Shown: in pieces, positions 1,260-43,937 of the stretch
Numbering within the stretch: position 1 is the first letter of the stretch
Layout: the number at the start of each line of letters is the position of its first letter
Virus record (IMG/VR): IMGVR_UViG_3300045391_000045
Coordinates: 1-64,000 of that record
Length of the DNA stretch: 64,000 nucleotides
Direction: 5' to 3' (one strand)
Origin: a virus
Translations under genes and position numbers: made by a program
Notes under the pieces: generated by a model
Database searches by the model: none
Seen by the model: only the letters and a program-made list of their open reading frames with translations
Told to the model about the DNA's origin: nothing

Positions 1260-1452
1260 ATATGAAGATGGCTGCTGTGACACATGCGACGGAAAGGGAA
1301 CATCGAATGATGCCCAAACGAGTGGCAAGTGTTGGGATTGCAGAGGGACAGGTCACGTTCATGTAATCGTGGAGGTCAGAGGAGTAATTACAGCAGACCA
1401 AATCAATCGTGAGATTGGTAGAATGATTCAACAGAGTTCGAGGTTTAGGTGA
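1249..1452 (+). CDS. DnaJ-type CxxCxGxG zinc-finger protein
   Basis: repeated CxxC-GxG motifs (CDTCDGKG, CWDCRGTG). Confidence 0.5.
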   Translation: MTCEYEDGCCDTCDGKGTSNDAQTSGKCWDCRGTGHVHVIVEVRGVITADQINREIGRMIQQSSRFR

Positions 1453-1778
1453 CAGACGAGAATCCACTAGAGACTGTCTCTGTTCTAACAGAGTTCAATG
1501 ATTTGACTGAGTTCATGCAGGACGAGCAACTAGACCGTGCTCTTGAACTTGCCATCAAATGTATCGCGCAACCAGATATTGCTGCGGTAAAGGCTCCACG
1601 ACTAATTGTTGAGCTTCAGGCAATTTCGTTCAAGTTCGCTGTGAAGGCTGTTGAGTACGCGACCATTAAGAAGGACCGGGCGGGTACAGATAACAACCAT
1701 CGCAAGAACGTTTATTACTCAACCAAGGAAGCACTAGACCGCTTGGTAGATGCATTGAAGTATGCCGCTAGGGCATAA
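1449..1778 (+). CDS. hypothetical protein
   Basis: 109 aa ORF, overlapping start/stop coupling. Confidence 0.45.
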   Translation: MTDENPLETVSVLTEFNDLTEFMQDEQLDRALELAIKCIAQPDIAAVKAPRLIVELQAISFKFAVKAVEYATIKKDRAGTDNNHRKNVYYSTKEALDRLVDALKYAARA

Positions 1779-1839
1779 ACTAGTCAACCAAGATTTCATG
1801 TGTTACAATGGTTACATAATAAACAATGATTGGAATTAA

Positions 1840-2622
1840 ATGAAGCGAGAGATTATTCAGGGTCTCAAGTTTCGTAAGCAGCCCGAGGGTTTCGATGCTA
1901 ATGAGCTTTCCGAAATCCTTGAGGCTGCTTATCTGAAGCAGCGACGCCCTAACAAGCATACACAGAAGAAGACATTTTCACCTAGCACTATCGGATATGG
2001 GCATGGCACATGCCCACGATATTGGTTCCTTGCCTTTACGGGCGGGATGTTTATTGACCAGGTAGATGCTCTAGGAATTGCCAACATGTCCAATGGTACT
2101 CAGGCTCACGAACGTATTGAGAAGTTGTTTGATGACTCTGGGATTCGCCTAGGAAATGAGATTGAAATTACGATGGACAGCCCGCCTATTCGCGGGTTTG
2201 CTGACGTAGAAATCAATTGGAAGGGTGAAGAGGTAATTGGTGAAATCAAGACAACACGTCAGGAATCGTTCCTTGTACGTCAGTCTACGATGAAGCCTAC
2301 AGCCAATCACCTATTCCAAATTCTCATTTATATGAAGGCTAGGAATCGAAAGATGGGCTTTCTGTTGTATGAGAATAAGAATTCACAGGAATTCCTCATT
2401 CTTCCTATTGAGATGAATGAACAGAACGAGAAGATTGTCAATAATGCACTTGAGTGGATGAGAGAGACATACAAGGCATATACAGAAGGCAATGTTCCAA
2501 ACAGACCACTACAGAAGCGCAGCAAGATTTGTAAGGGCTGCCCATTCTATGATTGGTGCTGGAGTGACGATTCTCCTGAGGGAAAGATTGATATTCCTGT
2601 AATGGAGGTTCCAAAGATTTGA
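1840..2622 (+). CDS. PD-(D/E)xK nuclease, Cas4/RecB-like exonuclease
   Basis: D...EIK nuclease motifs (GFADVE, GEIKTT), QxxxY motif, C-terminal Cys cluster CKGCPFYDWC typical of Cas4-like Fe-S nucleases. Confidence 0.7.
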   Translation: MKREIIQGLKFRKQPEGFDANELSEILEAAYLKQRRPNKHTQKKTFSPSTIGYGHGTCPRYWFLAFTGGMFIDQVDALGIANMSNGTQAHERIEKLFDDSGIRLGNEIEITMDSPPIRGFADVEINWKGEEVIGEIKTTRQESFLVRQSTMKPTANHLFQILIYMKARNRKMGFLLYENKNSQEFLILPIEMNEQNEKIVNNALEWMRETYKAYTEGNVPNRPLQKRSKICKGCPFYDWCWSDDSPEGKIDIPVMEVPKI

Positions 2623-2900
2623 TTACGTGTGCATACGCTGAGTGTGGTCGTTTGTTTGAGGCAAAGACGCATAATCAGCGTTATTGTTCAGACGAATGTT
2701 GCCGAAAGGCGACCAACGCTCGTTTGATGGAGCAATACTACGAAAAGAAGGCTCGTAGACAGGGCCACATTCGTGTATGCAAGAATGCTGACTGTAATAC
2801 AAGACTGTCCAGATACAATGACAGTAATGAATGTCAGCGTTGTGCTTCGGCCAAGGAAACTGAGCGCCGTAAGCAGTTGCTTAATCTAGTAGGAATTTAA
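2619..2900 (+). CDS. Cys-rich zinc-finger protein
   Basis: multiple CxxC pairs, basic. Confidence 0.45.
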   Translation: MITCAYAECGRLFEAKTHNQRYCSDECCRKATNARLMEQYYEKKARRQGHIRVCKNADCNTRLSRYNDSNECQRCASAKETERRKQLLNLVGI

Positions 2901-3487
2901 TGTCACTTGTAGACCTAAAGAAAACTAAGGCGAGTAGGGTCATGGGCATTGACTGCTCGACTCACTCGCTTGCTTTTACCATCTTCTTCAATAGACGTCC
3001 CATCAAGTGGGGCAAGATTAATTTCGAAGGCGCTGACGTTTTTGACAGGCTGGAGGATGCAGCAAATAAGCTGCGGGCAGTCAAGGACGAGTTTGATGTT
3101 GACTACATCGCTTTTGAGAGTGCCATCTTGGCTAGGACCAAGAACGCAGACGTGACAATCAAGTTGGCTATGGTGTATGGTGCTTGTATCGCAGAGCTTA
3201 TGCGTAAGGGTGTCAAGGTCGTAACAGTCAAGCCCTTGACATGGCAGTCGTACATCGGTAATCCTAACTTCAAGCCAGCAGAGAAGCTAGCTCTGAAGAA
3301 GGAGTTCCCAGACAAGTCAGCTTCGTGGTACTCTACAAAAATCAGAGAGCTTCGAAAGCAGAAGACGATGGACTACTTCAATAAGAAGTGGCCGCACATG
3401 GAGCTAACAGATAATGATGTTGGTGACAGCGCGGGAATTGCCTATTACGCCTACTACAGTCTAACGACTCGTGGTAAGGTGGACTAA
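2900..3487 (+). CDS. RuvC-like Holliday junction resolvase
   Basis: GIDCS, DYIAFES and DSAGIA motifs matching the RuvC catalytic D/E/D triad layout. Confidence 0.7.
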   Translation: MSLVDLKKTKASRVMGIDCSTHSLAFTIFFNRRPIKWGKINFEGADVFDRLEDAANKLRAVKDEFDVDYIAFESAILARTKNADVTIKLAMVYGACIAELMRKGVKVVTVKPLTWQSYIGNPNFKPAEKLALKKEFPDKSASWYSTKIRELRKQKTMDYFNKKWPHMELTDNDVGDSAGIAYYAYYSLTTRGKVD

Positions 3488-12119: not shown

Positions 12120-12458
12120 ATGCAAACTGAAGCACAGAAGGCTGCCAAGGCAGCACATTATCAGGCAAATAAGGAAGCGTACAAAGCAAGATTTACAGCT
12201 CGTAAGCGATTGTTTTCTAGAATTGCGGTAGAGCTGAAAACGTTTAACCCGTGTATGGATTGTAAGAACTACTTCCATCCATGCGCAATGCAGTTTGACC
12301 ATCGTCCAGGAACAAATAAGCTTTTCCATGTCTCTGATTATGGAAAATTTAGTTCAGTAGTAAAGTTTCTGGAAGAGATTGATAAGTGTGACCTAGTATG
12401 TGCAAACTGTCATGCAGTTAGAACATATACTCGGCGGGTTGAAGAAGACTCTCAATAA
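12120..12458 (+). CDS. HNH endonuclease
   Basis: HNH motif FDHRPGTNKLFHV...CANCHAV. Confidence 0.6.
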   Translation: MQTEAQKAAKAAHYQANKEAYKARFTARKRLFSRIAVELKTFNPCMDCKNYFHPCAMQFDHRPGTNKLFHVSDYGKFSSVVKFLEEIDKCDLVCANCHAVRTYTRRVEEDSQ

Positions 12459-12480
12459 ATTGCCATGCGAGGAAAGAGAT

Positions 12481-13620: not shown

Positions 13621-13749
13621 TTGACTTCCAAGTCTTGGAGGTGCTAAGATGGTATATAGATTGAAGGCGCTGTTCTTCAAGTTCCGCCCGGTGGTTGACA
13701 AGCTACTGAGCAGATGGTACGTTAGAAGAACAAAGTAAGCAACAAGCTT

Positions 13750-13868
13750 TCGGGTCGGCTGGATGAGGGTTATCTAACCTAAACAATTATACAGTCAATG
13801 GTAATTCCTGGTGGATTCCAGGGAGTGTGGTGACTATAACACCTCTCCCTCGCCAATAACATATCCGA
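13750..13868 (+). ncRNA. Y RNA-like / YrlA-related repeat unit a (GGGTCGG...TTATCTAAC...ACATATCCG), precedes tRNA-Ile
   Basis: shares 5' GGGTCGG, internal GGTTATCTAAC and 3' ACATATCCG motifs with six other units; multiple hairpins; Ro60 gene nearby. Confidence 0.45.
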
Positions 13869-13874
13869 AAACAA

Positions 13875-13949: not shown

Positions 13950-13953
13950 CTTT

Positions 13954-14089
13954 ATGGGTCGGATTCAGTAGTTTAACTTAAATCCAAACCGCGTGTCCTA
14001 GGTTCGAATCCTAGTCCCGGCTTTCTTGTCGGGGTAGCTCAGTGGCAGAGCAGTGGTCCTTAAAAAACACTATTGAAACAACATATCCA
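13954..14089 (+). ncRNA. Y RNA-like (YrlA-like) unit b with permuted tRNA-like module (T-arm + 3' acceptor, 5-nt loop, 5' acceptor + D-arm)
   Basis: 13988-14022 ACCGC-GTGTC-CTAGG-TTCGAAT-CCTAG-TCCCGGC followed at 14028 by GTCGGGG-TA-GCTC-AGTGGCA-GAGC-A-GTGGT; acceptor halves pair 7/7, GTGGT pairs ACCGC 5/5. Confidence 0.55.
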
Positions 14090-14107
14090 TTAAATAACTT
14101 AAAATTT

Positions 14108-14249
14108 GCGGGTCGGAAGAATTCAGTTATCTTTCTACCACAAACAATCAGAAAACCGCAGGTTCGACTCCTCGGAGGGATGAATGTGAGAGGTCACAGC
14201 TAGGCATGAAGCTTAGTGAATCCAGCTTCTGAATTCTATAATATATCCG
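14108..14249 (+). ncRNA. Y RNA-like repeat unit c (degenerate T-arm-like element GGTTCGACTCC)
   Basis: 5' GGGTCGG, 3' ATATATCCG, internal ACCGC-AGGTTCGACTCC. Confidence 0.35.
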
Positions 14250-15139: not shown

Positions 15140-15263
15140 TCGGGTCGGAGTTTCTTGGTTACCTTACTATGCATGAGAAGTTGTCGGTTCGAATCCGGCC
15201 GGGTCCATTCATGGGCCTGTAGTTTAATTGGCAAAACTTACACCGAGGAACGTTTCATATCCG
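15140..15263 (+). ncRNA. Y RNA-like (YrlA-like) unit f with permuted tRNA-like module
   Basis: 15183-15207 GTCGG-TTCGAAT-CCGGC-CGGGTCC-A, loop TTCAT, then 15213 GGGCCTG-TA-GTTT-AATTGGCA-AAAC; acceptor halves pair 7/7 with wobbles; bounded by GGGTCGG and CATATCCG. Confidence 0.5.
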
Positions 15264-18550: not shown

Positions 18551-18743
18551 TGAGAAGGCAAAGGAACTTCAGGACACCATCAACGAGATTGGCATGAGCG
18601 TGCTTACGGGTTACACTCTTGCTGATGCAATTCGTGAGGGTTCCATGGTATCAAAGCAGGAGTATGGTTGGGGCGATGGGGCTACTGCATGTGCTCTTAC
18701 TGCTGCTGTGATTGGTGCCAAGTCTCGTGGCTACGTCGATTGA
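18537..18743 (+). CDS. hypothetical protein
   Basis: 68 aa. Confidence 0.4.
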   Translation: MNKIDEKAKELQDTINEIGMSVLTGYTLADAIREGSMVSKQEYGWGDGATACALTAAVIGAKSRGYVD

Positions 18744-18912: not shown

Positions 18913-18990
18913 GCCCCAGTATCGCCACTGGCTTCTAACCAGTCGTTAACAGCGTAATGGAGTATGCAGGTTCGAATCCTGTCTGGGGTA
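18913..18990 (+). tRNA. atypical tRNA-like gene (anticodon TCT, Arg) with 5-nt D region and 22-nt variable arm
   Basis: acceptor GCCCCAG/CTGGGGT, anticodon arm ACTGG-CTTCTAA-CCAGT, T-arm GCAGG-TTCGAAT-CCTGT; no D-arm can be folded. Confidence 0.4.
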
Positions 18991-22794: not shown

Positions 22795-22866
22795 GGTCCT
22801 TTGTTGCGAGTGGCTAGCAATCGGTCTGCAAAACCGAATACGTGGGTTCGAATCCCACAAGGGCCT
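22795..22866 (+). tRNA. tRNA-Cys (anticodon GCA)
   Basis: acceptor GGTCCTT/AAGGGCC, anticodon arm TCGGT-CTGCAAA-ACCGA, T-arm GTGGG-TTCGAAT-CCCAC. Confidence 0.55.
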
Positions 22867-23230
22867 CTATACATTCTCCGCCTGAATGTAGAAGGTAACC
22901 GCAAGTGTAAAACGCCTTGAAAGCGTGCCTGTGAAAGCGGAACGGGACTCCTCTAGCAGGGAGATTGAAACCATAGGGAATAGCCCGTATAGACCTATGG
23001 CACCACGGACTACGATGTGCTAGCATTGGTGGTGGTTCCGGAGAAGAGGCTAGTCACCTCCAACTGGGTATTATGGTAAGATGAGTTTCGGATGTTGGCT
23101 CTTGAAATACTAAGCATTCAGCGGGTAATGTGAGTTAGGCGGGGGAGCCTGCAAACCTCACAGAATGGCCAGGACTGATACATCCTCCCGTGAAACGTAT
23201 TCAGAGCGTAAGCTGCTACTTACGCATCAT

Positions 23231-23306
23231 TCCCCTATAGCATAATCGGCAGTGCACCGGACTGTTAATCCGCAAAGTTCTGGTTCGAATCCAGATGGGG
23301 GAGCCA
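23231..23306 (+). tRNA. tRNA-Asn (anticodon GTT), CCA encoded
   Basis: acceptor TCCCCTA/TGGGGGA, D GCAT/GTGC, loop CTGTTAA, T-arm TCTGG-TTCGAAT-CCAGA, followed by GCCA. Confidence 0.55.
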
Positions 23307-23557
23307 CACGCACAGAATTGGGAAAAGAACGGATTTGGAAACCACGCAATAACCATGGTAAAGGTGGTGAAAGATGAAGGGGAGATACTGAAGAGCGGTG
23401 CGCCAAGACTATTATCTTGGTAAGGCACCCGCGTGGGACCAAGCTTAGTGGCATCGGTCGAGTGCCCATCTAGAACAATTCGTTTATCCTGGTATACGCG
23501 CTTTCGCGGCGGATTGTTTGAAGATAAAGGGGTCACGCCCATTCGGCCTTTTTTAAT

Positions 23558-23630
23558 GCCTCCGTAGTGAAATGGACAATCACGCTAGTCTTCGGAACTA
23601 GAATTACGGGTTCGAATCCTGTCGGGGGTA
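23558..23630 (+). tRNA. tRNA-Arg (anticodon TCG)
   Basis: acceptor GCCTCCG/CGGGGGT, D GTGA/TCAC, anticodon arm CTAGT-CTTCGGA-ACTAG, T-arm ACGGG-TTCGAAT-CCTGT. Confidence 0.6.
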
Positions 23631-23807
23631 CATGGCAAAGGAAGCAAAGGTAGGCTCCATCGTTTTGATTCTTACAGGAGAGGGCGAAGGAGATACTGCA
23701 ACCGTAGATAGAGTTGACAGAAGTGGCAATATTCGGGCCAAGATGAATAGAGGTCCGAAGTCTGGCCAGTCTGTCTTGTCTCGAAAGGGAAATTACAGGG
23801 TGATTTC

Positions 23808-23981
23808 ATGATTAAGAAGAATGATAAGGTACGCATCTTATACGGAAACCGGGCGGGTGTAATGGCCAAGGTGCTCCGTGTGTATGACACCAATAACATC
23901 AAGGCTAGGGTAATTACTGACGGACCCTTCAAGGGCGAAATCCTTGAGGTAGTCAGAGAAGGTCACTACGCCAAGGCTTGA
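23808..23981 (+). CDS. small KOW/SH3-like protein (paralog family)
   Basis: 57 aa MIKKNDKVRILYGNRAGVMAKVLRV. Confidence 0.45.
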   Translation: MIKKNDKVRILYGNRAGVMAKVLRVYDTNNIKARVITDGPFKGEILEVVREGHYAKA

Positions 23982-24006
23982 CAGTACGAAGCACAGACTG
24001 TAAGGT
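23978..24006 (+). promoter_or_regulatory. promoter TTGACA-N17-TAAGGT
   Basis: overlaps end of KOW gene, precedes tRNA-Arg. Confidence 0.45.
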
Positions 24007-24014
24007 CTGTGTAT

Positions 24015-24086
24015 GCCCTTGAAGTTCAAAGGATGAACAACTCCCTCCTAAGGAGCAGGCTGCTGGTTCGAATCCAGTCAGGGGCA
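24015..24086 (+). tRNA. tRNA-Arg (anticodon CCT)
   Basis: acceptor GCCCTTG/CAGGGGC, D GTTC/GAAC, loop CTCCTAA, T-arm GCTGG-TTCGAAT-CCAGT. Confidence 0.6.
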
Positions 24087-24191
24087 CAAGAAAAAATATA
24101 CAAGGCACAGGGGTTTGGCCCGTCCCCGAATCATGAGCCTTGGGTTCTCGTCCATAGAGAATTTAAGTCAACGGGCCTGCCAAGGAGTGAT

Positions 24192-24386
24192 ATGGCTAAG
24201 ACAAGGAAAATGATTGGCGTCTACTTCGGCAATGATAAGAAAAAGAACTGGATTGGTTCTGCTCATAACAAAGCCATGGTAGAGTTGCTTATTGAAGCAC
24301 ATATGGGCGCTACTGGAAGAAAGCGCAATGAGTACAAAACGTTCAACTATACTGATGACCCTGAAAAATTGGGGCCACCAGACTAA
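24192..24386 (+). CDS. hypothetical protein
   Basis: 64 aa; RBS CAAGGAGTGATATG; the longer track ORF 24009-24386 overlaps tRNA-Arg. Confidence 0.45.
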   Translation: MAKTRKMIGVYFGNDKKKNWIGSAHNKAMVELLIEAHMGATGRKRNEYKTFNYTDDPEKLGPPD

Positions 24387-24665
24387 GGGGTAGCTTGGTT
24401 TCGACTTTGCTGGACGGGATATAAACGCAACCCTTCTTGGTCAAAGAAGTAAAACGGGCCAACCAAATAAATGCAAACTCTATGAATGCATCTGCTTTCG
24501 CTCTAGCAGCGTAAAAGCCGGGTTTGTCGGGAACCTAGGAACAGAATCCCGACTAGTACAAAATGTGTAGATAATGTGTAAGACCCTTCAGTGTGATTGA
24601 CAATGGTTGTAGAACGGTTATATGCTAGATAGTAAAGGACGCGGGTTCGACTCCCGCCTACTCCA
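24387..24665 (+). ncRNA. ssrA: tmRNA (ssrA), tag ANSMNASAFALAA
   Basis: 5' GGGGTAGCTTGGTTTCGAC...GGACGGGAT like tmRNA 5' end; in-frame tag GCA AAC TCT ATG AAT GCA TCT GCT TTC GCT CTA GCA GCG TAA (24473-24514); 3' T-arm GCGGG-TTCGACT-CCCGC + acceptor CTACTCC pairing GGGGTAG. Confidence 0.8.
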
Positions 24666-24676
24666 CACAGAAAGAT

Positions 24677-24856
24677 ATGGTAATGAGAGTAACAAATCTC
24701 TACATCTATGGTACTGTCGAGTACCTGCGTAGGCTTGAGGAAGACTACGTGTTCATGGGTAGACAAGTGAGACTTGAAGATGATAGGCTCATCGTGTTCG
24801 CGCTTCCCAGGAAGAAGCGAAAGAAGTCTCCCAGTAAGCAGCGCCGTAGGCGTTGA
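24677..24856 (+). CDS. hypothetical basic small protein
   Basis: 59 aa ORF with Lys/Arg-rich tail. Confidence 0.3.
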   Translation: MVMRVTNLYIYGTVEYLRRLEEDYVFMGRQVRLEDDRLIVFALPRKKRKKSPSKQRRRR

Positions 24857-25447
24857 CAGACAGGGTTGGAACCTGTTAAGGTATAAGTAGAAGGTCAGGC
24901 AGTCGGACAAGGCTTAGGCGAGTGAGAGTAGTTCAAGCGGTGGTAACTTAAATGCCCACTTAATGATGCTCAACAAATCGGTGGGATGCGAGTGGACTAG
25001 TCCTGACCTTTTAAGCTTCAATCTGTGGATAACGAAAGGGGTCCGGCGTTCTGTGAACTGGCAGTCGGGTAGCCTGGCATGATACAATAAACCTCTAGCG
25101 GGGTTAGTCACCCAAGAGTAAAGTTCATTGAGGGTGAGCAGATTGAAAACTAGGTTGCGAGAGGGACAACGGGTGTGCTAAGGTTAGGTACCGAATCAAG
25201 GCACCAAGGTAGATAAGGGGAGAACAGCAAAGGGTCTCCGTGTATCGCAACCAAGCTTTGCAGCAAGCAGGCCAAACGCTATAGACAGGGATACAAGGTT
25301 CTGAAAAGATAACGCCCATTTGGCAGGGTAGAAAGTTATCACCTGATGCTATCCACGCTGCAACTATGGAGATGACCGGAAACTTCTCCATAAGCTTCCT
25401 TCGTACAAAGCTGTAGGAATAAAAACAAACACGAAGGGTATTAAAAT

Positions 25448-26332
25448 ATGTGGTACATTGGTTTCGCCAGTCTCTTTATTCTCGTCGGTCTGGTCGCTTT
25501 CGTAGTCGGTTTCATGACTAAGAATGACCCGAGCGTTCGAAAGGGGGCCTATGGTGTAACTGCCGCAATGGTTCTTCTGCTTGTGGTTGTCACTGCGTTT
25601 AATTCTGTGACTAAGGTTGATGCTCGTAACGTCGGTATTCAGACTGCTTTTGGTCGGTACCAGGGACAGCTTGACAATGGTCTTCAGATTATCGCACCTT
25701 GGTCTGAGCACGAGGATTTCTCGACGCAGATTCAGTACCTTGACCTTGATGGCGACAAGTGGGCTGATGGCGCTCCGGTCACGTTTTCTGGTGGTGGTCG
25801 TGGTGTTGTTTACGCTACTCCGCGTTGGTACATCAACAAGGAGGATGCTGGTCAGCTCTGGAAGAAGTACAAGACTCTTGACAACGTGAGTGACCGTCTT
25901 GTAAGGTCTTCTGTGAAGGACTCGTTCCGAGCCGTCATGACGGAGTACACCCCGAATGACGCTCGTACCAACGTTCGTGAGATTACTCAGAAGGTCGAAG
26001 ATGACCTTGCCCGTACGCTTGGTGATGATGGTATTAAGATTGACTCCATCAGCATCCGTGATATTCAGCTTGACGACCGTACTCAGGCTTCTCTCGACAA
26101 GATTGTTCAGGCGAACAACGACATTGAGCGAGCCAAGGCGGAGCAGCAGCGTGCTAAGATTGACGCTGAGACGCTGAAGATTAAGCAGAAGGGCGGTAAC
26201 CTTACCGAGGGTGGTCTTACTGACAAGTGTCTCACGGTGATGGACAAGTGGGACGTCAAGAAGAATGGTAACCTTCCTGCGGGATTCTCCTGCAATGGTG
26301 TGGGTACTCCGTTCACTGTCACCAACAAGTGA
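25448..26332 (+). CDS. SPFH/band-7 (stomatin/prohibitin-like) membrane protein
   Basis: N-terminal TM then SPFH-like core, C-terminal coiled coil. Confidence 0.65.
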   Translation: MWYIGFASLFILVGLVAFVVGFMTKNDPSVRKGAYGVTAAMVLLLVVVTAFNSVTKVDARNVGIQTAFGRYQGQLDNGLQIIAPWSEHEDFSTQIQYLDLDGDKWADGAPVTFSGGGRGVVYATPRWYINKEDAGQLWKKYKTLDNVSDRLVRSSVKDSFRAVMTEYTPNDARTNVREITQKVEDDLARTLGDDGIKIDSISIRDIQLDDRTQASLDKIVQANNDIERAKAEQQRAKIDAETLKIKQKGGNLTEGGLTDKCLTVMDKWDVKKNGNLPAGFSCNGVGTPFTVTNK

Positions 26333-27172: not shown

Positions 27173-27195
27173 TAATTAAATAACTTTCAGAACCC

Positions 27196-31801: not shown

Positions 31802-31815
31802 AAAGATGGTATAAG

Positions 31816-31980
31816 ATGCCTAGAGAAGATTTGGCAGCCCCAGGGATGCCACCTAAGGCACTACATCCTGTAGACTGTGAAAAGGGTGGAAAGCATAGGC
31901 CAACCACCAGAGAAATGAAGCAGGAAAACGGACAACACTTGAAGTACAATTACTGTACTAAGTGTCGTAAGATTCCGTGA
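31816..31980 (+). CDS. hypothetical small Cys-containing protein
   Basis: 54 aa. Confidence 0.3.
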   Translation: MPREDLAAPGMPPKALHPVDCEKGGKHRPTTREMKQENGQHLKYNYCTKCRKIP

Positions 31981-32005
31981 AATACCGCCCCGTAAGGGGC
32001 ATCAA

Positions 32006-41884: not shown

Positions 41885-42079
41885 ATGGGACAAAAGGGAA
41901 AGACACCAAAGTATCACAGAGGTCAGAGAGTATATTCAAAGACCTGGGGGTGCAATGCTACGGTAGTTGCATCTGATAACACCAGGTCTTTCCAAACTGT
42001 TTTTTACATCATCAGACTTGATGGTGCTAAGCAAGACAGTTACAATATTCCGGAGCACCTACTTGCTCCACCAAGATAA
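41885..42079 (+). CDS. small KOW/SH3-like protein starting 2 nt after tRNA-Glu 3' end
   Basis: junction ACGGGGTACATGG. Confidence 0.45.
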   Translation: MGQKGKTPKYHRGQRVYSKTWGCNATVVASDNTRSFQTVFYIIRLDGAKQDSYNIPEHLLAPPR

Positions 42080-42101
42080 AAACTATGGGCTTCGGCCCTA
42101 T

Positions 42102-42955: not shown

Positions 42956-42988
42956 CATGTGTTAAGATAGATACATCGGGTCGGACGG

Positions 42989-43017
42989 TTGACAAATAAT
43001 CCGACCTAACATACACT
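42989..43017 (+). promoter_or_regulatory. promoter TTGACA-N17-TACACT
   Basis: within GGGTCGGACGG...TCCGAC hairpin region. Confidence 0.4.
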
Positions 43018-43023
43018 TAGAGT

Positions 43024-43473
43024 ATGAAAACGTGCTCTAAGTGTAAGCTTGAAAAGCCTCTTGAGGATTTTCCAAAGAAGGGTTTCGTAAAGGGTAAGCA
43101 AGTTTATCGTTCGGACTGTAAAGATTGTAAGTCCGAATTGGATAAGAAGGTTTATGCCAATACAGACCTAGAAAGACGAAGAATTCTACAGGCCGAAGCC
43201 ACTAAGCGAAGGCTTGCTAATAACAGGAAATTGGTGTATGACTACCTGAAGAACCATCCATGTGTAGATTGTGGACAGGACAACATCATTGTGCTAGAGT
43301 TTGACCACGTAAGAGGTGAGAAGACGCAAAGCATTTCAACAATGGTTGCTAGACATAGACCAGAGTCAGAAATCCTAGAGGAAATTGAGAAGTGCGATGT
43401 TCGATGTGCAAATTGCCATCGTATCGTAACGGCTCAACGTGGTGGTTGGAATGTACTTGACCACCTAGACTGA
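43024..43473 (+). CDS. HNH endonuclease
   Basis: N-terminal Cys cluster, EFDHV...N...CANCH. Confidence 0.6.
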   Translation: MKTCSKCKLEKPLEDFPKKGFVKGKQVYRSDCKDCKSELDKKVYANTDLERRRILQAEATKRRLANNRKLVYDYLKNHPCVDCGQDNIIVLEFDHVRGEKTQSISTMVARHRPESEILEEIEKCDVRCANCHRIVTAQRGGWNVLDHLD

Positions 43474-43674: not shown

Positions 43675-43682
43675 CGAAACAA

Positions 43683-43716
43683 ATGCCCCGCTGGTAAATA
43701 ACTGGCGGGGATTTGT
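43683..43716 (+). terminator. hairpin CCCCG-N14-CGGGGATTTG (copy of 20797 element) after tRNA-Gly
   Basis: GCCCCGCTGGTAAATAACTGGCGGGGATTTGTTGTTTC. Confidence 0.45.
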
Positions 43717-43739
43717 TGTTTCTATGGTAAGATGGAGTC

Positions 43740-43937
43740 ATGGAAGAAATCGTATCCTACAGTTTTGCTGTAGACATTTACAAGAATGAGTCTGGAACGT
43801 ACACTTATGGTGTGTTCCAAGAGATTGAATCTGATGAAGAGGACGAACTACAGTTGCTTGAGTCTGGTGAGACTGATACACTAGCTGAAGCGGCAGAGGT
43901 TGCGGGCCGAAGCATCAAGACACTGTTCACTGTTTGA
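43740..43937 (+). CDS. hypothetical acidic protein
   Basis: 65 aa. Confidence 0.4.
   Translation: MEEIVSYSFAVDIYKNESGTYTYGVFQEIESDEEDELQLLESGETDTLAEAAEVAGRSIKTLFTV

What the first reader, a model, noticed from the sequence alone, without database searches (positions are those of the whole stretch)
22867..23230. Long ORF-free, hairpin-rich regions inside the tRNA island (22867-23230, 23307-23557, 24857-25447) - candidate structured ncRNAs
Three stretches of 250-590 nt between RNA genes have no credible ORF on either strand, although ORF density elsewhere is more than 90%. They contain numerous stable stem-loops (for example CACAGAC-TGTAAG-GTCTGTG and CGCGCTTTCGCG). They do not match tRNA, tmRNA or obvious RNase P cores by eye. 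They may encode novel sRNAs, leaders, or ribozyme-like elements.
Basis: seen in the sequence. Interest (0 to 1): 0.55.

Follow-up and report, generated by a model that had tools for sequence, protein, structure and literature searches.

The report
New structured RNAs in phage tRNA island
The three "empty" gaps between tRNA genes of this Streptomyces phage hold at least five conserved, intricately folded non-coding RNAs that match no described RNA family, adding a new set to the small group of mysterious large RNAs that phages keep next to their tRNA genes.

Summary
The window is a Streptomyces phage of the family Stanwilliamsviridae (about 130 kb, 32 tRNAs plus a tmRNA). The three ORF-free gaps are real and are also left unannotated in the curated relatives that were fetched.

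Single-sequence folding energy is not above shuffles (z -0.7 to -1.0). The case rests on comparison with relatives.

- **Region 1 (22868-23230)** is one RNA of about 363 nt. 41 of 74 pairs show compensatory changes, and 96.9% of cells are paired against 38-45% in slid controls.
- **Its 148-nt core (22927-23074)** occurs once per genome, always between two tRNA genes. It is found in more than 100 phages of two subfamilies and in 13 soil metagenome contigs. It has two covariation-supported pseudoknots and an invariant pair of complementary loops.
- **Region 2** holds two modules, 2a and 2b. Module 2b contains an H-type pseudoknot.
- **Region 3** holds a promoter-like site, a very conserved sRNA of about 125 nt (3b), two further modules (3c, 3d) and the leader of the downstream gene.

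No ORF is conserved. Rfam gives no match even at E<=10, including GOLLD, ROOL, RNase P and group I introns.

The most likely reading is stable ncRNAs. Some would be released from the tRNA precursor by tRNA-processing enzymes, and 3b would be made from its own promoter. Their function is unknown.

The parts
22868..23230 (+). Region-1 RNA (R1), about 363 nt. It fills exactly the gap between tRNA-Cys and tRNA-Asn.
   Evidence: The gap length is conserved at 363-380 nt (up to 444) in 15 phages of 3 genera. 41 of 74 pairs show changes on both sides. 96.9% of cells are paired against 38-45% when slid.
22871..22889 (+). 5' hairpin of R1 (ACAUUC/GAAUGU) with a conserved C-rich loop.
   Evidence: 5 of 7 pairs covary, for example to GUAUCC/GGAUAC and GUACUC/GGGUAC.
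22927..23074 (+). R1 core motif, 148 nt: four hairpins plus an inner hairpin. This is the part shared by both phage subfamilies.
   Evidence: Covariance model R1 scores 79-158 bits in 31 loci, with one copy each. On alignment A12, 93.5% of cells are paired against 31-41% when slid. 29 of 43 pairs show changes on both sides, and 0/500 shuffles reach that.
22942..22988 (+). Pseudoknot PK1: ACGGG (22942-22946) pairs with CCCGU (22984-22988), which lies in the loop of the CCAUAGG/CCUAUGG hairpin.
   Evidence: 99% of cells are paired. CGGG/CCCG becomes CGGA/UCCG in Coruscant and two metagenome contigs. A-U becomes G-U in 8 sequences.
22953..23023 (+). Complementary loops: CUAGCA (22953-22958, a hairpin loop) and UGCUAG (23018-23023, the 6-nt loop of the inner hairpin). 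This is a candidate kissing interaction.
   Evidence: Both hexamers are invariant in all 29 distinct sequences, so there is no covariation. The inner hairpin that presents UGCUAG is 100% paired, and its closing pair takes the forms CG, AU, GU and UA. The pairing itself is inferred.
23008..23055 (+). Pseudoknot PK3: GACUA (23008-23012) pairs with UAGUC (23051-23055), which lies in the 7-nt loop CUAGUCA.
   Evidence: Three of five positions covary in separate lineages: UACCA/UGGUA, GACCA/UGGUC and GAUUA/UAAUC.
23075..23230 (+). 3' domain of R1, present in the Loccivirinae-type phages only. It ends in the hairpin 23206-23225, just before tRNA-Asn.
   Evidence: Helices 10-15 of alignment A1 are 93-100% paired, and 20 of their 30 pairs covary. 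The domain is absent or replaced in Karimac, EGole, Bmoc and Tomas.
23307..23446 (+). Module 2a, about 140 nt. It has a closing stem, a hairpin with the invariant loop UAAUAACCAUGGUAAA, and a long covarying hairpin. It ends in AAGCUU.
   Evidence: 97.1% of cells are paired against 30-47% when slid, and 12 of 28 pairs covary. It is present or absent independently of 2b among relatives. In Genie2, Sushi23 and Enygma it lies between tRNA-Gln and tRNA-Trp.
23447..23557 (+). Module 2b, about 110 nt. The loop GGUCGA of hairpin 23450-23466 pairs with UCGGCC at 23543-23548 to form an H-type pseudoknot. The module also has a long stem (23474-23518) and the CGCG-CUUU-CGCG hairpin.
   Evidence: 99.2% of cells are paired against 32-45% when slid, and 11 of 32 pairs covary. 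Most of the changes separate just two lineages.
24853..24882 (+). Promoter-like site for 3b: TTGACA, an 18-nt spacer, then TAAGGT.
   Evidence: A TTGACA box sits 44-53 nt upstream of the 3b core in 15 of 16 loci from Loccivirinae, Boydwoodruffvirinae and Byblos, although the sequence around it differs. The site is a consensus match only and was not tested.
24886..25018 (+). Module 3b: a rod-like sRNA of about 125 nt with a very conserved interior. Its closing stem GGUCAGG/CCUGACC is followed by UUUUAAGCUU.
   Evidence: The element is 92-99% identical in phages whose flanks are only about 80% identical, and it is present in other genera. 98.1% of cells are paired against 30-57% when slid, and 11 of 29 pairs covary.
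25017..25258 (+). Module 3c, about 240 nt in two domains. It is found in Gilsonvirus-type phages, and one piece of it in LuckySocke.
   Evidence: The consensus fold is -68 kcal/mol, but only 6 of 71 pairs covary because the sequences are 81-91% identical. This is the weakest of the modules.
25256..25397 (+). Module 3d, about 140 nt. It has a closing stem UUGCAGC/GCUGCAA and a terminal hairpin with the invariant loop ACCGGAAA. It ends in AAGCUU.
   Evidence: 97.7% of cells are paired against 29-48% when slid, and 11 of 24 pairs covary. It is deleted in Francob and MeganTheeKilla while the downstream gene stays in place.
25398..25447 (+). Leader and RBS (GAAGGG at 25433-25438) of the band-7-like membrane protein gene.
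   Evidence: The ORF runs 25448-26332. The homologous genes are annotated as band-7-like.

Best explanation
The gaps encode a set of phage non-coding RNAs with conserved, pseudoknotted folds.

R1 and the 2a/2b unit have no promoter of their own and abut tRNA genes on both sides. They are therefore most likely made as part of the polycistronic tRNA transcript. RNase P cutting at the 5' end of the downstream tRNA, and 3'-end processing of the upstream tRNA, would then release them as discrete stable RNAs.

Module 3b looks like an independent sRNA gene, with a conserved -35 box at a fixed distance, a rod-like fold and a U-rich tail. Modules 3c and 3d follow it and end, as 2a and 3b do, in a stem followed by AAGCUU. 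That same punctuation follows GC-rich hairpins between genes across the whole window.

Once released, the RNAs most likely act in trans during infection as folded particles that bind a protein, the translation or tRNA machinery, or each other. The invariant loops would serve as the contact or tertiary-fold surfaces.

**Shown:** conservation, fold, strand, copy number, tRNA context, and absence from Rfam.
**Inferred:** transcription, processing by tRNA enzymes, and action in trans.
**Unknown:** the target.
For: **Fold and covariation**
- R1 whole: 96.9% of cells paired, 41 of 74 pairs covary.
- R1 core: 93.5% paired, 29 of 43 pairs covary, and PK1 and PK3 also covary. The inner hairpin is supported.
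- Modules 2a, 2b, 3b and 3d are supported.

**Strand:** G-U 62 against A-C 15 in the core.

**Not coding:** no ORF is conserved in position or frame.

**Context**
- One copy per genome.
- Wherever both flanks are held, the core lies between two same-strand tRNA genes. These are Cys-Asn in Loccivirinae, Ala(ggc)- or Ile-Lys(ctt) in Boydwoodruffvirinae, and Cys-Arg in Byblos.

**Transcription signals**
- sigma-70-like sites precede tRNA clusters. No + strand terminator-like site lies in 22.3-27.2 kb except at 27190.
- The TTGACA box upstream of 3b is conserved.

**Distribution**
- 100 phage records match the Karimac copy, and none has an annotation there.
- 13 soil metagenome contigs carry the core.
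- One pattern scan of 185,579 bacterial and archaeal genomes returned a single hit, in a Psychroserpens genome, and the covariance model did not match it.

**Precedent**
- GOLLD and ROOL are encoded in phages, often near tRNA islands (10.1101/2024.12.08.627333; PMC5737381).
Against: - No expression data were available, so neither transcription nor the RNA ends are shown.
- Single-sequence folding energies are not better than shuffles.
- Modules 2a, 2b, 3c and 3d are missing from some close relatives, so each is dispensable for growth in the laboratory.
- The sequences are related, so shuffle controls overstate significance. Several of the 'double changes' in 2b and 3d trace to two or three lineages only.
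- The loop-loop contact CUAGCA/UGCUAG has no covariation.
- Nothing points to a specific target.
Confidence: 0.75

Rival explanations
1. The folds are cis-acting spacers. They keep neighbouring tRNAs from misfolding together, or they guide and order processing of the long tRNA precursor, and they are degraded afterwards. On this view there is no trans-acting RNA.
For: R1 and 2a/2b abut tRNA genes directly. The terminal hairpin 23206-23225 sits 5 nt before tRNA-Asn and covaries. The modules are dispensable in some relatives.
Against: A spacer role would not explain several features. Invariant loops and two or three tertiary pairings are kept across two subfamilies. The same core is kept when the flanking tRNAs differ, as with Cys-Asn against Ala-Lys. 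Many tRNAs in the same island are packed 0-12 nt apart with no spacer at all. Module 3b has its own promoter-like site.
Confidence: 0.12
2. The modules are selfish or decaying mobile DNA. Examples would be miniature elements, or the remains of intron or homing-endonuclease cassettes that spread among inter-tRNA spacers. On this view the structure serves mobility, or is a relic.
For: - Presence and absence vary between close relatives.
- The same module sits in different tRNA gaps in different subfamilies.
- Inserted and deleted blocks are bounded by AAGCTT.
- LAGLIDADG, HNH and endonuclease VII genes sit in the same gaps in Forrest, Bmoc and TunaTartare.
- The GACUA/UAGUC pairing and the preceding GAAGAGG recall the R and S elements of group I introns. 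This resemblance comes from my own knowledge.
Against: - There is a single copy per genome.
- Strong purifying selection with compensatory changes argues against decay.
- The flanking tRNAs are complete, so there is no interrupted host gene.
- Rfam's group I intron model gives nothing at E<=10.
- The helix order does not fit the order of group I intron helices. The partner of CACCAC lies inside the would-be P7-P7' segment, and CCCGU lies in a hairpin loop.
- AAGCTT boundaries are explained by a genome-wide punctuation motif.
Confidence: 0.07
3. Modules 3c, 3d and the leader are a long regulatory 5' UTR of the downstream band-7-like membrane protein gene, acting as a riboswitch or thermosensor-like element. 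They would not be separate RNAs.
For: They lie directly upstream of the gene on the same strand, with no terminator-like site between them and it. Module 3d precedes an RBS in all phages that have it.
Against: - 3d is deleted in Francob and MeganTheeKilla, which keep the gene.
- Beuffert and Annadreamy keep 3d but have no band-7-like gene annotated there, and a different CDS follows it.
- 3c is absent from Faust, Sham and TunaTartare, which have the gene.
- Each module ends in the stem-AAGCUU punctuation.
- No riboswitch family matches.
Confidence: 0.1
4. The gaps encode very small proteins that annotation missed. This would fit the surrounding island, which is full of 50-60 aa genes.
For: Neighbouring genes are tiny. 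Gilson gene 130 and Annadreamy gene 119 are annotated over part of module 2a.
Against: No ORF of 25 or more codons is kept in position and frame across relatives. The two annotated CDSs start inside tRNA-Asn. The substitutions are paired across helices, not at third codon positions. Gap lengths differ by amounts that are not multiples of three.
Confidence: 0.02

Closest known systems
GOLLD RNA (Rfam RF01998) and ROOL RNA (RF03087)
   Same: Both are large RNAs with many pseudoknots and unknown function. They are encoded by phages and prophages, often in or beside tRNA islands, and tRNAs sometimes lie inside the GOLLD linker (10.1101/2024.12.08.627333; PMC5737381). Here too the RNAs are ornate, sit between tRNA genes on the tRNA strand, and carry invariant self-complementary loops.
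   Different: There is no sequence or structure match to either model, even at E<=10. The units here are smaller, at 110-363 nt against about 580 and 800 nt. There are several different units side by side. They are confined, as far as was searched, to one family of Streptomyces phages. Oligomerisation was not tested.
Bacteriophage T4 RNAC and RNAD (small stable RNAs of the tRNA gene cluster)
   Same: They are small RNAs transcribed from the phage tRNA region, and their roles are still unknown (PMC3014915). From my own knowledge, they are cut out of the tRNA precursor. That is the maturation route proposed here for R1 and 2a/2b.
   Different: The host and the phage lineage are unrelated, and no sequence comparison with RNAC or RNAD was made. 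The T4 RNAs are not known to carry comparable pseudoknotted cores.
Group I intron catalytic core (Rfam RF00028)
   Same: A GACUA/UAGUC pairing preceded by a purine-rich GAAGAGG strand resembles the R and S elements that form P7. The elements lie in a tRNA context and near homing endonuclease genes in relatives.
   Different: There is no match to the model. The order of helices does not fit group I introns. No gene is interrupted, because both flanking tRNAs are intact. The RNA does not end in G at the tRNA-Asn junction (it ends ...GCAUCAU), whereas group I introns end in a conserved G.
Bacterial Y RNA-like YrlA (RF02553) and other tRNA mimics
   Same: These are ncRNAs associated with tRNA-like modules. 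Two sub-threshold YrlA hits occur elsewhere in this same island.
   Different: There is no YrlA or tRNA hit inside the three regions, and the folds here are not cloverleaf-like.

Membership tests
GOLLD RNA (RF01998) | A match to the family covariance model, which captures the conserved 3' half with its pseudoknots. | tested here: not met
   cmscan with permissive filters at E<=10 over 22800-25500 and over 11000-45000 gave no GOLLD hit.
GOLLD RNA (RF01998) | Location in a phage or prophage, near or interleaved with tRNA genes. | tested here: met
   All modules lie in the tRNA island. R1 and 2a/2b lie directly between tRNA genes.
ROOL RNA (RF03087) | A match to the family covariance model (about 580 nt, six multistem junctions, three pseudoknots). 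| tested here: not met
   No ROOL hit at E<=10.
GOLLD / ROOL | Homo-oligomeric assembly into a cage. | not testable with these tools
   The only leads are the self-complementary invariant loops: UGCUAGCA in R1, and CCAUGG in 2a, which changes to CCUAGG in Gilson.
Group I intron (RF00028) | A match to the model, with the P3-P9 core in canonical order. | tested here: not met
   No hit at E<=10. The helix order from covariation is incompatible with the canonical order.
Group I intron (RF00028) | The intron interrupts a host gene, and the exons join to restore it. | tested here: not met
   Complete tRNA-Cys and tRNA-Asn flank R1, scoring 51.7 and 62 bits against the tRNA model.
Bacterial RNase P RNA (RF00010 / RF00011) | A match to the model, with conserved regions CR-I to CR-V and the P4 helix. 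| tested here: not met
   No RNase P hit at E<=10. GAAUGGCC and GGAACGGGA resemble CR-V and CR-I only superficially, and ACGGG pairs elsewhere, in PK1.
tRNA / tmRNA / YrlA clan | A cloverleaf or tRNA-like domain detectable by ARAGORN or Infernal. | tested here: not met
   No tRNA, tmRNA or YrlA call falls inside 22868-23230, 23307-23557 or 24857-25447.
T4-type tRNA-cluster small RNAs (RNAC, RNAD) | A stable RNA excised from the phage tRNA precursor. | not testable with these tools
   The genomic arrangement fits. Transcripts and their ends were not observable here.
Small protein-coding genes | An ORF conserved in frame and position among relatives. | tested here: not met
   No ORF is conserved among the 8-15 sequences of each module alignment.

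The most novel reading that the evidence does not exclude
R1, and perhaps 2a, would be a new class of self-assembling or catalytic phage RNA.

Every hairpin loop of the 148-nt core is either engaged in a tertiary pairing or invariant. Two loops carry self-complementary sequences: UGCUAGCA in R1, and CCAUGG in 2a, which changes to CCUAGG and so stays palindromic. These could mediate homo-oligomerisation like that seen for ROOL, GOLLD and OLE.

Alternatively, the compact double-pseudoknot core is a ribozyme or a tRNA-binding RNA that acts on the neighbouring tRNAs or protects them from host tRNA-targeting defences.
Probability: 0.15. Interest if true: 0.85.

Novelty: new variant of a known kind. 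Interest (0 to 1): 0.62.

Why it matters
Large, highly structured bacterial and phage RNAs of unknown function are rare, and they have repeatedly led to new biochemistry. The only described classes tied to phage tRNA islands are GOLLD and ROOL, plus the old, unexplained T4 RNAC and RNAD.

Here at least five further, unrelated folds sit within 2.6 kb. They are conserved in more than 100 cultured phages, many of them SEA-PHAGES isolates. From my own knowledge, such isolates come with archived lysates and hosts, and engineering methods exist for this kind of phage. That makes the open question of why phages keep ornate RNAs beside their tRNAs directly testable in a tractable system.

It also shows that curated actinophage annotations systematically miss RNA genes. 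The stem-AAGCUU punctuation and the modular gain and loss at it give a handle on how the tRNA islands are transcribed, processed and reshuffled.

Tried and rejected
**Known RNA families.**
- Rfam at gathering thresholds and at E<=10, on the region and on the whole island, gave only tRNAs, the tmRNA and chance-level hits.
- Group I intron: I considered it because of the R/S-like GACUA...GAAGAGGCUAGUC. I rejected it on the model, the helix order and the intact flanking tRNAs.
- RNase P RNA: I considered it because of GGAACGGGA, UAGCCCGUA and ACAGAAUGGCC. I rejected it because the model does not match, the order is not colinear with E. coli or B. subtilis RNase P as I recall them, and ACGGG pairs with CCCGU instead.
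- SRP RNA-like for 3b (GGUCAGG...GGACAAGG): there is no model hit.

**Statistics and coding.**
- Single-sequence folding significance is not significant.
- Small-ORF reading: rejected.

**Database scans.**
- The first pattern scans of viral contigs returned several chance matches. L016-L020, L023 and L024 were not matched by the region-1 profile. L030-L032 and L035 were not matched by the profile and looked unrelated on inspection.
- The genome scan returned a single hit, in a Psychroserpens genome, and the covariance model did not match it.

**Alignment.** MAFFT alone mis-registered the CACCAC/GUGGUG helix between subfamilies (68% paired). Realignment to the covariance model fixed this (96%), with the caveat that such an alignment leans towards the nested helices. 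The pseudoknot pairs were not in the model, so their counts are unbiased.

**Not attempted.** I did not search for antisense targets of the invariant loops.

Full report
**What the window is.** ARAGORN and Rfam find 32-33 tRNA genes and one tmRNA (tag ANSMNASAFALAA), all on the + strand between 11.7 and 44 kb. Megablast of 22600-25500 hits only Streptomyces phages. The best hit is Francob, at 88% identity over 91% of the query, followed by Gilson, Moab and Patelgo. These phages belong to Stanwilliamsviridae, subfamily Loccivirinae, genus Gilsonvirus, and are about 130 kb long. The window is therefore a new relative from that lineage.

**Checking the observation.**
- The same gaps are left without any feature in curated relatives. 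Cys-Asn is 363-380 nt in most (up to 444). Asn-Arg is about 250 nt where both modules are present. The gap in front of the band-7-like gene is 370-770 nt.
- No ORF of 25 or more codons is kept in frame and position among relatives.
- Two CDSs annotated over module 2a, Gilson 130 and Annadreamy 119, start inside tRNA-Asn.
- On the single sequence, the regions do not fold better than dinucleotide shuffles (z -0.68, -1.03 and -0.97). 'Hairpin-rich' alone is therefore not evidence.
- One cited hairpin, at 23992-24011, lies outside the regions.

**Region 1 is one large structured RNA.** An alignment of the Cys-Asn gap from 15 phages of three genera shows blocks of invariant sequence separated by helices that change on both strands. 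Examples are ACAUUC/GAAUGU to GUAUCC/GGAUAC, CCAUAGG/CCUAUGG to CCUCAG/CUGAGG, CACCAC/GUGGUG to GCCAG/CUGGC, and GCGUAAG/CUUACGC to GCGUGAG/CUCACGC.

RNAalifold predicts 74 pairs, and 41 of them have compensatory changes. With the same structure, 96.9% of cells are paired against 38-45% when the 3' partners are slid by 1-3 columns. No shuffle out of 500 reaches the observed covariation.

**The core motif and its spread.**
- A 148-nt core (22927-23074) is also found in the other subfamily, Boydwoodruffvirinae. There it sits between tRNA-Ala(ggc) or tRNA-Ile and tRNA-Lys(ctt), in gaps as short as 170 nt (Karimac, Wofford, EGole, Bmoc, Tomas, Coruscant).
- In the unclassified phage Byblos the core lies between tRNA-Cys and tRNA-Arg.
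- Blastn with the Karimac copy finds 100 phage records, none annotated at that place.
- A pattern scan of metagenomes gave 17 contigs. The covariance model confirms 13 of them, and every one lies in a tRNA island on the tRNA strand.
- One scan of 185,579 bacterial and archaeal genomes gave only one hit, which the model did not match.
- The model finds exactly one copy per locus.

On the 31-sequence alignment, 93.5% of cells are paired against 31-41% when slid, and 29 of 43 pairs show changes on both sides. G-U cells outnumber A-C cells 62 to 15, so the RNA is read from the tRNA strand.

**Tertiary pairings in the core.** Three pairs of invariant, complementary segments stood out.
- **PK1** pairs ACGGG with CCCGU in the loop of the third hairpin. 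It becomes CGGA/UCCG in Coruscant and two metagenome contigs.
- **PK3** pairs GACUA, in the internal loop of the fourth helix, with UAGUC in the 7-nt loop CUAGUCA. It covaries at three of five positions in separate lineages: UACCA/UGGUA, GACCA/UGGUC and GAUUA/UAAUC. These pairs were not part of the covariance model, so the alignment is not biased towards them.
- **The third pairing**, CUAGCA with UGCUAG, never varies in 29 distinct sequences. UGCUAG is the 6-nt loop of an inner hairpin whose closing pair takes four forms: CG 17, AU 7, GU 4 and UA 1. This is therefore a loop-loop contact, either within the molecule or between molecules, because UGCUAGCA is a palindrome. The contact is inferred, not shown.

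The 3' 155 nt of R1 is specific to the Loccivirinae type and is itself well supported (helices 10-15).

**Region 2 is two modules.** Relatives carry 2a only (Blueeyedbeauty), 2b only (Comrade, Phredrick, Forrest), both, or neither (Beuffert).
- **2a** (23307-23446) has 97.1% of cells paired against 30-47% when slid, and 12 of 28 pairs covary. Its hairpin loop UAAUAACCAUGGUAAA is invariant, except that CCAUGG becomes CCUAGG in Gilson, MeganTheeKilla and Kenrey, and so stays palindromic.
- **2b** (23447-23557) has 99.2% of cells paired against 32-45% when slid, and 11 of 32 pairs covary. This includes an H-type pseudoknot in which the loop GGUCGA of the first hairpin pairs with UCGGCC near the 3' end, becoming GGUUGA/UCAACC in the Gilson group.
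- In Genie2 and Enygma, a 2a-like and a 2b-like unit together lie between tRNA-Gln and tRNA-Trp. Sushi23 has a 2a-like unit there. In this window those two tRNA genes are 12 nt apart.

**Region 3 is a mosaic.**
- **Promoter-like site.** It starts with TTGACA-18 nt-TAAGGT (24853-24882). A TTGACA box sits 44-53 nt upstream of the next element in 15 of 16 loci, even where the upstream neighbour is a tRNA instead of a small gene.
- **Module 3b** (24886-25018) is a rod-like RNA. Its interior is 92-99% identical in phages whose flanks are about 80% identical, and it is present in other genera. 98.1% of cells are paired and 11 of 29 pairs covary. A U-rich tail follows the closing stem.
- **Module 3c** (25017-25258) folds well, but it has too little diversity for a test: only 6 of 71 pairs covary.
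- **Module 3d** (25256-25397) is supported, with 97.7% of cells paired and 11 of 24 pairs covarying.
- **The last ~50 nt** are the leader and RBS of the band-7-like gene.
- **3d is not a dedicated regulator of that gene.** It is lost where the gene stays (Francob, MeganTheeKilla). It is kept where no band-7-like gene is annotated and a different CDS follows (Beuffert, Annadreamy).

**Punctuation.** Modules 2a, 3b, 3c and 3d each end in AAGCUU, and blocks gained or lost in relatives are bounded by it. AAGCTT is the most frequent 6-nt palindrome in the window, with 52 copies. 30 of the 52 directly follow a GC-rich hairpin, against 5.8% of random positions. An RBS often lies a few bases further on, and five copies sit between a TTGACA and a -10-like hexamer. 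It looks like a genome-wide end-of-unit signal for termination or processing, and a likely site of modular recombination. I did not resolve which.

**How it most likely works.** sigma-70-like sites precede the tRNA clusters at 18740, 20285, 20661 and 21651. No + strand terminator-like site is found between 22.3 and 27.2 kb except at 27190. R1 and 2a/2b have no promoter of their own and touch tRNA genes on both sides.

The simplest route is co-transcription with the tRNAs, then release by RNase P at the 5' end of the next tRNA and by 3' processing of the previous one. Module 3b would be made from its own promoter.

This is inference from anatomy, and no expression data were available. Their action after release is unknown. 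The conservation of loops and tertiary contacts argues for a folded particle that binds something, not for a simple antisense RNA.

**Comparison with known families.** The closest in kind are GOLLD and ROOL: ornate RNAs of unknown function, encoded in phages often near tRNA islands, and now known to form homo-oligomeric cages (10.1101/2024.12.08.627333; PMC5737381). Also close are RNAC and RNAD of T4, transcribed from its tRNA region with unknown roles (PMC3014915).

Membership in GOLLD, ROOL, group I introns, RNase P RNA and the tRNA/YrlA clan was tested with Rfam 15 at E<=10 and not met. For group I the helix order and the intact flanking tRNAs also speak against it. Literature searches for Stanwilliamsviridae and for Streptomyces phage ncRNAs found no description of these elements.

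**Verdict.** There are at least five distinct conserved structured RNAs (R1, 2a, 2b, 3b, 3d), one probable one (3c), a promoter and a leader. The RNA families are new, but the kind is known: ornate phage RNAs in tRNA islands. The main gaps are the absence of expression data and of any functional lead.

Noticed in passing
whole window, e.g. 3506, 29910, 31400, 37346, 44528, 45031, 59759, 62248; also 56430, 57183, 58129, 59173, 63947: AAGCTT is the most frequent 6-nt palindrome in the window, with 52 copies. 30 of them directly follow a GC-rich tetraloop hairpin, against 5.8% of random positions, and an RBS often lies 5-15 nt further on. Five copies sit between TTGACA and a -10-like hexamer. This looks like a genome-wide terminator, processing or promoter punctuation motif, and like the boundary at which modules are exchanged.
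   Followed up: partly
window 13965-14079 and 15178-15238 (+): Sub-threshold Rfam hits to YrlA, the Y RNA-like tRNA mimic (29.0 and 28.5 bits against a gathering score of 69; E 0.02-0.03). They lie in other ORF-poor gaps of the same tRNA island and may be degenerate tRNA-like elements or further ncRNAs.
   Followed up: no
window 12131-12459, 13621-13874, 13951-14215, 31802-32005, 41885-42101, 42966-43233, 43676-43899: These are further stretches of the tRNA island with no tRNA and no + strand ORF of 38 or more codons with an RBS, by a rough script. They could hold more RNA modules of the same sort.
   Followed up: no
window 18913-18990 (+): Rfam calls an additional tRNA (34.2 bits) directly after tRNA-Arg(gcg). 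ARAGORN does not report it.
   Followed up: no
It is not in any of the three regions.
   Followed up: partly
L008 1723-2172 (Forrest), L011 3952-4461 and 5086-5583 (TunaTartare), L038 3350-3715 (Bmoc): LAGLIDADG, endonuclease VII and HNH endonuclease genes are inserted in the same inter-tRNA gaps in relatives. In TunaTartare the tRNA-Arg(tcg) gene (and the tmRNA) is missing where the endonuclease genes sit, and in Bmoc the insertion separates 3b from its promoter-like box.
   Followed up: partly
L002 2144-2275 (Gilson gene 130); L013 3117-3308 (Annadreamy gene 119): These annotated 'hypothetical protein' CDSs start inside tRNA-Asn and run into RNA module 2a. They are probably mis-annotations.
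   Followed up: partly
window 23353-23358 (module 2a loop) and 23018-23025 (R1): These are self-complementary loop sequences. CCAUGG is invariant in 2a, except that it is CCUAGG in Gilson, MeganTheeKilla and Kenrey, so it stays a palindrome. UGCUAGCA is invariant in R1. Both are possible homodimer kissing sites.
   Followed up: partly
L010 (Sham) 1445-3335: The deposited Sham annotation names the tRNAs by the wrong amino acid for the anticodon given, for example 'tRNA-Val(gta)', 'tRNA-Ala(gca)' and 'tRNA-Pro(cct)'.
   Followed up: no
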